NCBI RefSeq assembly: GCF_003334255.1
Contig: NZ_QOWU01000263.1
Origin: Escherichia coli
GTDB taxonomy: Bacteria > Pseudomonadota > Gammaproteobacteria > Enterobacterales > Enterobacteriaceae
DNA: 320 nt
Strand: one strand, 5' to 3'
Shown: positions 1-320 of the stretch, one piece after another
Position numbering within the stretch: the first letter of the stretch is position 1
Layout of the letters: every line of letters begins with the position of its first letter
Translations under genes and position numbers: made by a program
The notes under the pieces: model-generated
What the model saw: the letters and a program-made list of their open reading frames with translations, nothing else
Told to the model about the DNA's origin: nothing
Databases searched by the model: none

Positions 1-4
1 TTTA

Positions 5-16
5 GGGCGCTTTTTT
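5..16. terminator. Possible distal half of an intrinsic terminator, truncated by the window edge: GGGCGC followed by TTTTTT
   Basis: On the + strand, GGGCGC (5-10) is followed directly by a T6 run (11-16). The complementary GCGCCC stem arm would lie left of position 1 and is not visible. On the minus strand the same region reads, just after the tRNA CCA, A6-GCGCCC, i.e. the A-tract side of a possibly bidirectional terminator. Only half the structure is present, so this is tentative. Confidence 0.3.
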
Positions 17-20
17 ACAT

Positions 21-96
21 TGGTGGGTCGTGCAGGATTCGAACCTGCGACCAATTGATTAAAAGTCAACTGCTCTACCAACTGAGCTAACGACCC
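21..96 (-). tRNA. tRNA-Lys, anticodon UUU, 76 nt with genomically encoded 3' CCA
   Basis: Reverse complement of 21-96 is GGGTCGTTAGCTCAGTTGGTAGAGCAGTTGACTTTTAATCAATTGGTCGCAGGTTCGAATCCTGCACGACCCACCA. It folds as a canonical cloverleaf: acceptor stem GGGTCGT/ACGACCC (7 bp), D-arm GCTC/GAGC, anticodon stem GTTGA/TCAAT with loop CTTTTAA (U33, anticodon UUU at window 61-63, A37), T-arm GCAGG/CCTGC with loop TTCGAAT, discriminator A, CCA. Recognised from memory as the E. coli-type tRNA-Lys(UUU) of the lysT family; the specific paralog is not assignable from sequence alone. Confidence 0.96.
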
Positions 97-144
97 ATAC
101 GGGTGTTACCTGAAAGATTTTTACTCGGGGCCAATCTTTAAGAT

Positions 145-162
145 TGGTGGGTCGTGCAGGAT
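145..162 (-). repeat. Orphan 18-nt tRNA-Lys 3'-end fragment (tRNA positions 59-76: end of T-loop, T-stem 3' strand, acceptor 3' strand, discriminator, CCA)
   Basis: 145-162 (TGGTGGGTCGTGCAGGAT) is identical to 21-38 and 243-260, the 3' termini of the two full genes. Identity stops abruptly at 163; the following sequence shows no tRNA body (no T-stem 5' strand, anticodon arm or D-arm). It therefore cannot fold into a tRNA and is a remnant, not a gene. Confidence 0.85.
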
Positions 163-242
163 GACTCGCTTCGCTCGCCCTACGGGCCGTTGCTGGCGCA
201 ACGTTATCCTTCACGCTTAACATCTGAGTTTGATGTTAAAAC

Positions 243-318
243 TGGTGGGTCGTGCAGGATTCGAACCTGCGACCAATTGATTAAAAGTCAACTGCTCTAC
301 CAACTGAGCTAACGACCC
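243..318 (-). tRNA. tRNA-Lys, anticodon UUU, 76 nt with genomically encoded 3' CCA (second copy, identical to 21-96)
   Basis: 243-318 is base-for-base identical to 21-96 (76/76). Same cloverleaf; anticodon at window 283-285. It lies upstream of the 21-96 copy in the direction of transcription. Positions 319-320 are probably the first bases of a short spacer to another upstream gene, which is not visible here. Confidence 0.96.
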
Positions 319-320
319 GA

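What the first reader, a model, noticed from the sequence alone, without database searches (positions are those of the whole stretch)
21..318. Two perfectly identical tandem tRNA-Lys copies with a non-repetitive spacer
The two genes are 76/76 identical while the spacer between them is unique sequence. This is consistent with concerted evolution by gene conversion within a multi-copy tRNA-Lys operon, and the tandem copies are substrates for copy-number change by unequal crossing-over. From memory of the E. coli K-12 map, a 146-bp Lys-Lys spacer may correspond to the lysY-lysZ interval, but I cannot verify this without a database search.
Basis: partly seen in the sequence, partly recalled or inferred. 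Interest (0 to 1): 0.15.

Follow-up and report, generated by a model that had tools for sequence, protein, structure and literature searches.

The report
E. coli lysT operon tRNA-Lys pair
This is the well-known end of the E. coli lysT tRNA operon: two identical lysine tRNA genes whose spacer is not unique sequence but holds a known "tRNA-linked repeat" that copies the tRNA's last 18 bases, so the finding is ordinary with one correction.

Summary
Two tRNA-Lys(UUU) genes lie on the minus strand at 21-96 and 243-318. They are 76/76 identical and 146 nt apart. The spacer is 146/146 identical to the E. coli K-12 lysY-lysZ spacer.

Two corrections:
- The window is not K-12. Bases 1-20 are the start of the operon terminator, which in K-12 follows lysQ. 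The window matches strains such as NCTC86 exactly. Those strains carry six tRNAs (one Lys unit fewer than K-12).
- The spacer is not unique. Window 145-242 is a 98-nt tRNA-linked repeat (TLR, RtT-like) ending in an 18-nt copy of the tRNA 3' end. This family was described in 1978 and 1999 and has no known function.

Among E. coli strains this TLR is a precise presence/absence polymorphism. Gene conversion is not needed to explain the tRNA identity, because the same 76-nt sequence is invariant across Enterobacterales.

The TLR has a four-helix fold supported by covariation. In Photorhabdus, related units are whole tRNA-Lys copies interrupted in the T-loop.

Verdict: already known, low interest.

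The parts
1..20 (-). First half of the operon's Rho-independent terminator (transcript sense ATGTAAAAAAGCGCCCTAAA), cut by the window edge
   Evidence: In NCTC86 and K-12 the full sequence is ATGTAAAAAAGCGCCCTAAAGGCGCTTTTTT. In K-12 it follows lysQ, not lysZ.
21..96 (-). Distal tRNA-Lys(UUU) gene with encoded CCA. It is the last tRNA of a 6-tRNA lysT operon and combines lysZ's 5' flank with lysQ's 3' flank.
   Evidence: ARAGORN; Rfam tRNA 79.2 bits; 76/76 identical to all K-12 tRNA-Lys genes of this operon; annotated tRNA-Lys in NCTC86.
97..144 (-). 48-nt basal spacer, the 5' leader of the distal tRNA. It is the only part of the spacer present in TLR-less alleles. Its first bases pair with the pseudo-CCA (hairpin at window 131-147).
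   Evidence: The TLR-less Lys-to-Lys spacer in KN13-4, AZ159 and E2348/69 is exactly this 48-nt segment. It is 48/48 identical between TLR-less KN13-4 and TLR-bearing S1-ESP-03-A. The hairpin appears in the fold.
145..242 (-). tRNA-linked repeat (TLR, short-form RtT-like element), 98 nt, starting right after the CCA of the proximal tRNA
   Evidence: Rfam RF00391 scores 54.4 bits on the whole window and 41 bits, model positions 46-130, on the spacer alone. The same module sits in every long spacer of the operon. It is a precise indel among strains. It folds at -32.7 kcal/mol, z = -3.5. Its structure is supported by covariation. The family is described in PMC8144298.
145..162 (-). Pseudo-3' end: an exact 18-nt copy of tRNA-Lys positions 59-76 (AUCCUGCACGACCCACCA). 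The copy starts inside the T-loop.
   Evidence: Direct sequence comparison with 21-38 and 243-260. This is the defining TLR feature according to PMC8144298.
206..215 (-). 5' strand of the TLR outer helix (CGUGAAGGAU). It pairs with AUCCUGCACG in window 153-162 and leaves ACCCACCA (145-152) single-stranded.
   Evidence: Folds. In the Tyr-type TLR the equivalent pairing is GGGGAAGGAU with AUCCUUCCCC.
168..203 (-). Three internal TLR hairpins: A at 188-203 (CGUUGC/GCAACG), B at 177-187 (GCCC/GGGC), C at 168-174 (GCGAAGC)
   Evidence: Compensatory changes occur in hairpins A, B and C across 41 distinct enterobacterial copies.
217..239 (-). Leading hairpin of the TLR (UUAACAUC...GAUGUUAA), immediately after the CCA of the proximal tRNA
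   Evidence: Fold. The hairpin is conserved in the lysW-valZ spacer and in the Kluyvera and Enterobacter orthologues.
243..318 (-). Proximal tRNA-Lys(UUU) gene (position of K-12 lysY)
   Evidence: ARAGORN; Rfam. It is preceded by valZ plus the CTC spacer in NCTC86 and K-12.
319..320 (-). Last two bases (UC) of the 3-nt valZ-lysY spacer CUC

Best explanation
The window is the distal end of the Escherichia coli lysT tRNA operon, read on its minus strand. The operon lies between cpoB and nadA. [quoted passage not shown]

The window contains two identical tRNA-Lys(UUU) genes with encoded CCA, the 146-nt lysY-lysZ spacer, and the first half of the Rho-independent terminator. It comes from a 6-tRNA allele, as in strain NCTC86, that lacks one Lys gene plus the 132-nt spacer relative to K-12.

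Shown by others in K-12 (PMC4176162):
- The whole operon is one transcript of about 1100 nt.
- RNase P first removes the terminator and then cuts at each tRNA 5' end, working 3' to 5'.
- Each tRNA-Lys is therefore released with the following spacer as a long 3' trailer.
- That trailer is trimmed by RNase II and PNPase and finished by RNase T. RNase E plays a minor role.

Shown here:
- The first 98 nt of the spacer are a tRNA-linked repeat (TLR, RtT-like). It is a conserved four-helix structured module whose last 18 nt duplicate the tRNA 3' end from the T-loop to CCA.
- It is dispensable in nature. Whole E. coli lineages lack it precisely.

Inferred:
- The TLR is gained, lost and amplified by exchange between the 18-nt direct repeats, and whole tRNA units by exchange between the identical tRNA genes.
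- The identity of the two tRNA genes is maintained mainly by purifying selection, with recombination as a secondary homogeniser.
- The function of the TLR RNA is unknown. My best guess is a structured processing by-product that carries a decoy or second processing 3' end.
For: - Location: 100% identity over 320 nt to NCTC86 and relatives. The annotated context there is pal-cpoB-Lys-Val-Lys-Val-Lys-Lys-RtT-nadA.
- Spacer: 146/146 identical to K-12 lysY-lysZ, but the 3' flank is the terminator that follows lysQ in K-12. The window is an exact substring of L001 and L003. K-12 holds only positions 21-320.
- Processing pathway: PMC4176162.
- TLR family definition, and the statement that its function is unknown: PMC8144298.
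- K-12 has five pseudo-3' ends in this operon.
- Precise indel: 146 = 98 + 48, 135 = 100 + 35, 149 = 98 + 51, 132 = 99 + 33. Occupancy varies independently at each site among strains, and the operon holds 5-8 tRNAs.
- The occupied 146-nt spacer is found in 4068 of 5426 genomes, and the occupied 132-nt spacer in 1996.
- Structure: z = -3.5. 98.8% of cells are paired, against 27-46% in slid controls. Seven pairs show compensatory changes, with 0 of 500 shuffles reaching that. RNAalifold predicts the same fold.
- tRNA invariance across genera.
- An orthologous occupied spacer exists in Kluyvera.
Against: - Nothing contradicts the identification.
- The weak points are functional. No experiment on this spacer's RNA was found in the searchable literature.
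- The RNase P study never mentions the repeat.
- Precise natural deletions argue against an essential role, whereas covariation argues against pure junk.
- The direction and mechanism of the indels (deletion by slipped or unequal exchange) are inferred from sequence only.
Confidence: 0.9

Rival explanations
1. One reading: the spacer is unique sequence, and the perfect identity of the flanking genes is a signature of concerted evolution by gene conversion within the operon.
For: TLR cores in one genome are more alike than cores from different genomes (mean distance 0.097 against 0.154; 0 of 5000 permutations). This fits homogenisation or recent duplication of repeat units. Unit number is clearly labile.
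Against: The spacer is not unique. The 76-nt tRNA is identical in 187 of 223 copies from many genera, so identity between paralogues carries no information about conversion. In Citrobacter a variant tRNA-Lys with a compensated acceptor-stem change coexists with the canonical one in the same operon, so homogenisation is not obligatory.
Confidence: 0.15
2. The TLR is a functional RNA module under selection. It could be a cis-acting processing element whose pseudo-3' end recruits the enzymes that recognise tRNA 3' ends (RNase E as proposed for the rRNA-linked TLRs, or RNase P, RNase T or the CCA enzyme). Alternatively it could be a stable small RNA released from the transcript in proportion to tRNA synthesis.
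For: The four-helix fold is conserved, with compensatory changes, across Enterobacterales. The 5' strand of the outer helix matches whichever tRNA end is copied: CGUGAAGGAU for Lys and GGGGAAGGAU for Tyr. The orthologous spacer is occupied in Kluyvera, Enterobacter and others. The rRNA-linked TLRs RrA, RrB and RrF are processed and bind Hfq and CsrA, and their repeat was proposed as an RNase E signal. The tyrT RtT accumulates as an RNA, according to citations of Bosl and Kersten 1991.
Against: Phylogroup-scale lineages such as AZ159 and E2348/69 lack every spacer TLR. The original RtT phenotype was retracted, and tRNA-operon TLRs scored below 0.01 as CsrA binders. In wild-type K-12 the spacers behave as 3' trailers that are degraded.
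Confidence: 0.3
3. The TLR is a selfish or relic DNA element. It is the decayed 3' remnant of a tRNA gene copy that was interrupted in its T-loop by a structured insertion of about 64 nt. It persists and spreads only through recombination between tRNA-end repeats.
For: In Photorhabdus each 174-179-nt unit is tRNA-Lys positions 1-58, then the insertion, then positions 59-76. Up to 10 such units sit in tandem behind intact tRNA-Lys genes. 85 of 105 long-form units keep the T-stem 5' strand plus the first T-loop bases, against 0.6 expected by chance. Pectobacterium units keep positions 29-58, which gives a decay series. The 18-nt repeat starts exactly in the T-loop. The element is dispensable in E. 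coli.
Against: Covariation in the inserted core implies selection on structure. E. coli Tyr and Lys TLRs show no significant similarity to the tRNA 5' parts. The Photorhabdus form could equally be derived, by exchange between a TLR's T-arm-like motif and a real tRNA. No mobilising enzyme or mechanism is known.
Confidence: 0.3

Closest known systems
E. coli K-12 lysT operon, lysY-lysZ interval (b0747-b0748)
   Same: Both tRNA genes are 76/76 identical and the spacer is 146/146 identical. The upstream context (valZ plus CTC) and the chromosomal neighbourhood between cpoB and nadA are the same.
   Different: The downstream gene is followed directly by the terminator. K-12's 132-nt lysZ-lysQ spacer and a seventh tRNA are absent, so the operon has six tRNAs.
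tRNA-linked repeats (TLRs; Egan and Landy 1978, Rudd 1999, reviewed in Stenum et al. 2021, PMC8144298)
   Same: It lies inside a tRNA operon. Its last 18 nt equal the 3' end of the upstream tRNA. It shares the conserved core (AACGUUGC...GCAACGGCCCGNAGGGCGAG) with the other TLRs.
   Different: None in kind. It is presumably one of the five TLRs at the lysT locus, which would match the published range of one to five TLRs per locus. The published functional work concerns only the rRNA-linked members RrA, RrB and RrF.
RtT RNA of the tyrT operon (Rfam RF00391; rttR, Bosl and Kersten 1991)
   Same: Homologous core and the same outer-helix logic. Rfam gives E = 3.8e-07 on the spacer alone. PGAP annotates the operon's post-terminator copy as RtT sRNA.
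   Different: The window's element is a short form. It matches only model positions 46-130 and scores 41 bits, below the gathering score of 45, unless the real upstream tRNA supplies the 5' half. It ends in the Lys 3' end rather than the Tyr one, and it has no tpr-like ORF.
attL/attR repeats left by integrative elements that target tRNA genes in the T-loop (recalled from general knowledge, not tested against a database)
   Same: A direct repeat of the tRNA 3' end that starts in the T-loop and brackets a precisely excisable segment.
   Different: Only about 80 nt lie between the repeats, with no integrase or cargo. The same core occurs with Tyr, Lys and 5S ends. It is not a member of this class.

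Membership tests
Bacterial tRNA-Lys(UUU) gene | Cloverleaf recognised by tRNA models, with anticodon UUU | tested here: met
   ARAGORN finds both copies. Rfam RF00005 scores 79.2 bits against a gathering score of 29.
Bacterial tRNA-Lys(UUU) gene | Sequence identity to the characterised E. coli tRNA-Lys genes, with genomically encoded CCA | tested here: met
   76/76 identical to K-12 lysT, lysW, lysY, lysZ and lysQ. Both copies end in ACCA.
E. coli lysT operon, lysY-lysZ interval | 146-nt spacer with the K-12 sequence, preceded by valZ plus CTC | tested here: met
   146/146 identity. The context is seen in NCTC86 and K-12.
E. coli lysT operon, lysY-lysZ interval | Downstream gene followed by the lysZ-lysQ spacer and lysQ, as in K-12 | tested here: not met
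   Window 1-20 is the terminator start. K-12 has ATTTAAAGGTGG... after lysZ. The window is a 6-tRNA allele.
tRNA-linked repeat (TLR) | Located in a tRNA or rRNA operon, downstream of a tRNA or rRNA gene | tested here: met
   It starts at the base after the CCA of the proximal tRNA-Lys.
tRNA-linked repeat (TLR) | Last 18-19 nt identical to the 3' end of the upstream gene | tested here: met
   Window 145-162 equals 243-260 and 21-38, 18/18. The definition is from PMC8144298.
tRNA-linked repeat (TLR) | Sequence relatedness to other TLRs | tested here: met
   Alignment with the other four Lys TLRs and three Tyr TLRs. Rfam RtT gives E = 3.8e-07.
Rfam RF00391 RtT | Score at or above the curated gathering threshold (45 bits) over the whole model | tested here: inconclusive
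   54.4 bits on the whole window, but model positions 1-57 are aligned to the real upstream tRNA across a 44-nt insertion. The spacer alone scores 41 bits and matches model positions 46-130 only.
Rfam RF00391 RtT | Released as a discrete stable RNA from the tRNA transcript | not testable with these tools
   No expression data are available here, and no paper on lysT spacer RNAs was found.
Concerted evolution by gene conversion | Paralogues within a genome more alike than orthologues between genomes | tested here: inconclusive
   The tRNA genes are uninformative because they are invariant across genera. TLR cores are closer within genomes than between them, with 0 of 5000 permutations reaching the observed value, but recent duplication explains this equally well.
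Integrative-element att scar | Recombinase gene or element cargo between the tRNA-end repeats | tested here: not met
   Only 80 nt lie between the repeats. The only ORFs overlap the tRNA genes or the TLR and have no support.

The most novel reading that the evidence does not exclude
The TLR in this spacer is not inert. It belongs to an Enterobacterales-wide family of structured RNA modules that arose as a roughly 64-nt insertion in the T-loop of tRNA gene copies, as still seen intact in Photorhabdus arrays. The family is kept by selection on its fold, and it acts as a tRNA-3'-end mimic that is produced in step with tRNA transcription. It could serve as a decoy or sensor for 3'-end processing or CCA-recognising factors. 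Under this reading its precise gain and loss in E. coli lineages tunes that function.
Probability: 0.2. Interest if true: 0.5.

Novelty: already known. Interest (0 to 1): 0.2.

Why it matters
As given, the finding matters little. It re-identifies a textbook tRNA operon.

The follow-up adds three modest points:
- The "spacer" in tandem tRNA operons can hide a conserved structured repeat. Identity-versus-spacer arguments for gene conversion are unsafe without looking across species.
- The lysT operon is a natural experiment. E. coli lineages differ by precise presence or absence of each TLR and by 5-8 tRNA genes. This could be used to test what TLRs do, a question that has stayed open since 1978.
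- The Photorhabdus arrays suggest an origin for the family as tRNA genes interrupted in the T-loop.

Tried and rejected
- Plus-strand Rfam hits (Plastid-ycf2, psbI-rps4, YrlA) and mir-137 and CncR1 are far below their gathering scores. They are antisense or partial images of the tRNA genes. Rejected.
- The two plus-strand terminator-like sites (100-112 and 188-203) lie on the non-transcribed strand. The site at 188-203 is the complement of TLR hairpin A. Rejected as terminators.
- No sigma-70-like promoter was found on either strand. This fits the single-transcript model of PMC4176162.
- The four ORFs of 26-54 aa all overlap the tRNA genes or the TLR. There is no tpr-like ORF. Rejected.
- My by-eye impression that the E. 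coli tyrT RtT unit and the E. coli Lys long-form retain tRNA 5' parts was not significant. Local alignment scores of 8-13 fall inside the shuffle range. Only the 9-10-nt T-arm half is real there.
- An exact count of the window-type junction failed. K-12-type loci reach 82% coverage of the 160-nt junction query, which contaminates the at-least-80% count of 2186. Only a rough estimate was possible: about 5 of 60 systematically sampled records.
- The first literature search on RtT was swamped by Rett syndrome papers. Bosl and Kersten 1991 is not held, and Rudd 1999 was not searchable.
- Three non-enterobacterial MAG hits to the 19-nt pattern lack the core and any upstream tRNA-Lys. About six chance hits are expected in a collection of that size.

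Full report
**Observation**

The window carries two tRNA-Lys(UUU) genes on the minus strand at 21-96 and 243-318 (ARAGORN). Rfam's tRNA model scores each at 79.2 bits against a gathering score of 29. The two genes are 76/76 identical and are separated by 146 nt at 97-242. This part of the finding is correct and cannot be chance.

The statement that the spacer is non-repetitive is wrong. The repeat finder returns a third partial copy at 137-162. Window 145-162 is an exact 18-nt copy of the tRNA 3' end.

**Where it comes from**

Megablast against 5426 complete E. coli genomes finds a match in every genome. It finds 100% identity over all 320 nt in NCTC86 (two assemblies), B-2207 and one unnamed record. 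In NCTC86 the window lies between cpoB and nadA. It covers the last two genes of the order Lys-Val-Lys-Val-Lys-Lys, which is followed by a feature that PGAP annotates as RtT sRNA.

However, the 20 nt after the downstream gene (ATGTAAAAAAGCGCCCTAAA) are the start of the terminator that follows lysQ in K-12. In K-12, lysZ is followed by ATTTAAAGGTGG....

The window is an exact substring of NCTC86 and SCPM-O-B-7615. K-12 holds only positions 21-320. The window therefore comes from a 6-tRNA allele in which K-12's lysZ-spacer-lysQ unit is collapsed to a single gene.

**What is in the spacer**

All four long spacers of the operon, and a fifth site after the terminator, carry the same module. It ends in CGAGUC-AUCCUGCACGACCCACCA, and its last 18 nt equal tRNA-Lys positions 59-76.

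Rfam matches RtT RNA (RF00391) at 54.4 bits on the whole window. That alignment uses the real upstream tRNA as the model's 5' half. The spacer alone gives 41 bits, below the gathering score of 45, and matches model positions 46-130 only, with E = 3.8e-07.

The literature names these elements tRNA-linked repeats (TLRs). They were first seen in 1978 and catalogued by Rudd in 1999. K-12 has 22 of them at ten loci, with one to five per locus. They are defined by 18-19 terminal nt identical to the 3' end of the upstream tRNA or rRNA gene, and they have no known function. The phenotype originally attributed to the tyrT RtT was later retracted (PMC8144298).

The window's TLR is 145-242 (98 nt). The remaining 48 nt (97-144) are the basal spacer, which is the 5' leader of the distal tRNA.

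**Structure**

The 98-nt TLR folds at -32.7 kcal/mol with z = -3.5. The fold has these parts:
- a leading hairpin;
- an outer helix in which CGUGAAGGAU pairs with AUCCUGCACG of the pseudo-3' end, leaving ACCCACCA free;
- three internal hairpins.

In the Tyr-type TLRs the equivalent strands are GGGGAAGGAU and AUCCUUCCCC. The 5' strand therefore follows whichever tRNA end is copied.

Nearly all are Enterobacterales: Citrobacter, Enterobacter, Kluyvera, Pantoea, Erwinia, Dickeya, Pectobacterium, Serratia, Edwardsiella and Photorhabdus. Three non-enterobacterial hits lack the core and are at the level expected by chance.

On 41 distinct short-form copies, the four-helix structure has 98.8% of cells paired, against 27-46% when partners are slid. 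Seven pairs show compensatory changes, and 0 of 500 shuffles reach that. RNAalifold independently predicts the same fold. The outer helix is invariant within this set, partly by construction of the search pattern. The covariation lies in the internal hairpins.

**Population variation**

Eight sampled E. coli alleles show that each TLR is a precise presence/absence polymorphism. The TLR-less spacer is exactly what follows the pseudo-CCA in the occupied spacer:
- 146 = 98 + 48
- 135 = 100 + 35
- 149 = 98 + 51
- 132 = 99 + 33

Occupancy varies independently by site:
- K-12 has TLRs in all four long spacers.
- S1-ESP-03-A has them in the first and third.
- KN13-4 has one in the first only.
- AZ159 and E2348/69 have none.

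S1-ESP-03-A (occupied) and KN13-4 (empty) have 48/48 identical basal spacers and differ by exactly the 98-nt TLR.

tRNA number ranges from 5 (O157:H7 PV15-279) to 8 (E2348/69). The post-terminator unit of 156 nt (terminator plus TLR) occurs 0, 1 or 2 times.

Across 5426 genomes, the occupied 146-nt spacer is present at 80% coverage or more in 4068, and the occupied 132-nt lysZ-lysQ spacer in 1996. The window-type junction (lysY-lysZ spacer, then Lys, then terminator) appears in about 5 of 60 systematically sampled records. These include some O157:H7 strains, while other O157:H7 strains carry an extra Lys gene. This indicates recent changes in unit number.

Kluyvera genomosp. 3 has the same Lys-Val-Lys-Val-Lys-Lys-Lys order, with an orthologous occupied Lys-to-Lys spacer that shares the leading hairpin and the 3' leader. 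Occupancy therefore predates E. coli, and the empty E. coli alleles are most simply precise deletions between the 18-nt direct repeats. This direction is an inference.

**How it works**

For K-12, Agrawal, Mohanty and Kushner showed the following (PMC4176162):
- The operon is one transcript of about 1100 nt.
- The lysine pre-tRNAs keep the following spacer as a 3' trailer of up to about 150 nt.
- The trailer is shortened by RNase II and PNPase and finished by RNase T.
- RNase E cuts in the long spacers only when RNase P is defective.

That paper does not mention the repeats. For the rRNA-linked TLRs, Stenum et al. proposed that the repeated end is an RNase E recognition element. Whether the Lys TLR RNA accumulates or acts is unknown. 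I found nothing on it in the searchable literature.

**The gene-conversion idea**

The same 76-nt tRNA-Lys is found in 187 of 223 copies over 87 loci from many genera. The variants differ by 1-2 nt. Identity of the two copies in the window therefore needs no more than purifying selection.

TLR cores are more alike within genomes than between them (0.097 against 0.154; 0 of 5000 permutations). This is compatible with homogenisation, but also with recent duplication of units.

**Side finding**

Long-form TLRs of 126-180 nt keep the T-stem 5' strand and the first T-loop bases of tRNA-Lys (CAGGUUCGA) in 85 of 105 distinct units, against 0.6 expected by chance. No short form has this motif.

In Photorhabdus each 174-179-nt unit consists of a spacer, tRNA-Lys positions 1-58, a core of about 64 nt, and positions 59-76. 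It is a tRNA gene interrupted in the T-loop. In P. asymbiotica, two intact tRNA-Lys genes are followed by ten such units. Rfam scores these as full-length RtT at 72-86 bits, while ARAGORN sees only the intact genes.

Between units, the tRNA part (0.91) and the core (0.92) are far better conserved than the spacers (0.52-0.57). Many acceptor 5' strands are broken, however. Pectobacterium units keep positions 29-58. The E. coli elements show no significant similarity to the tRNA 5' parts. This suggests, but does not prove, that TLRs descend from T-loop-interrupted tRNA copies.

**Verdict**

The feature is the known distal end of the E. coli lysT operon, in a 6-tRNA allele, and its spacer contains a known tRNA-linked repeat.
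- Novelty: already known.
- Interest: low (0.2). The open question of TLR function carries a modest upside.

Noticed in passing
L038:8485-10431 (Photorhabdus asymbiotica); also L010, L017, L018, L037, L084, L091, L129: Two intact tRNA-Lys genes are followed by tandem arrays of up to 10 units. Each unit is tRNA-Lys positions 1-58, an insertion of about 64 nt exactly in the T-loop, and then positions 59-76. Rfam calls them full-length RtT (72-86 bits), while ARAGORN misses them. The tRNA part and the insert are about 91% conserved between units, against 52-57% for the spacers. Many acceptor 5' strands are broken.
   Followed up: partly
L001:1865-1990 (NCTC86); L002:2154-2340 (K-12); L008 (S1-ESP-03-A): After the last tRNA-Lys, a 156-nt unit made of the terminator plus a long-form TLR occurs 0, 1 or 2 times among E. 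coli strains. The direct repeat bounding it is 54 nt (18 nt of tRNA end plus 36 nt of terminator), so the operon can end in two or three identical terminators. This parallels the dual terminators that flank the rRNA-linked TLRs.
   Followed up: partly
window 131-147; K-12 spacers in L002: The real or pseudo ACCCACCA end is repeatedly followed, 3-10 nt downstream, by a complementary GGUGG or UUGG segment. Examples are CCAAUCUUAAAGAUUGG in the window and ACCCACCACUAAUGACGGUGGGU in the lysW-valZ spacer. In the precursor, a hairpin would therefore sequester the CCA end. No significance test was done.
   Followed up: no
window 168-174: TLR hairpin C in E. coli is GCGAAGC. From memory, this sequence forms an unusually stable mini-hairpin as DNA. 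In other genera the hairpin is GGCGAAGCC or GACGAAGUC, with compensatory changes.
   Followed up: no
L011, L039, L062 (Citrobacter); L060 (Kluyvera genomosp. 1); L107 (Lelliottia): A second tRNA-Lys(UUU) variant with a compensated acceptor-stem change (GGGGCGU...ACGCCCC) coexists with the canonical gene in the same operon. The adjacent TLR keeps the canonical ACGACCC end, so paralogues are not always homogenised.
   Followed up: no
L007 (O157:H7 PV15-279) versus hits H83-H85 (other O157:H7 strains): Strains of the same serotype differ in the number of tRNA-Lys genes at the end of the lysT operon. This implies very recent unit gain or loss.
   Followed up: partly
summary: Twelve of the 35,095 matching places are on plasmids, so tRNA-Lys-like sequence occasionally sits on E. 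coli plasmids. These were not examined.
   Followed up: no
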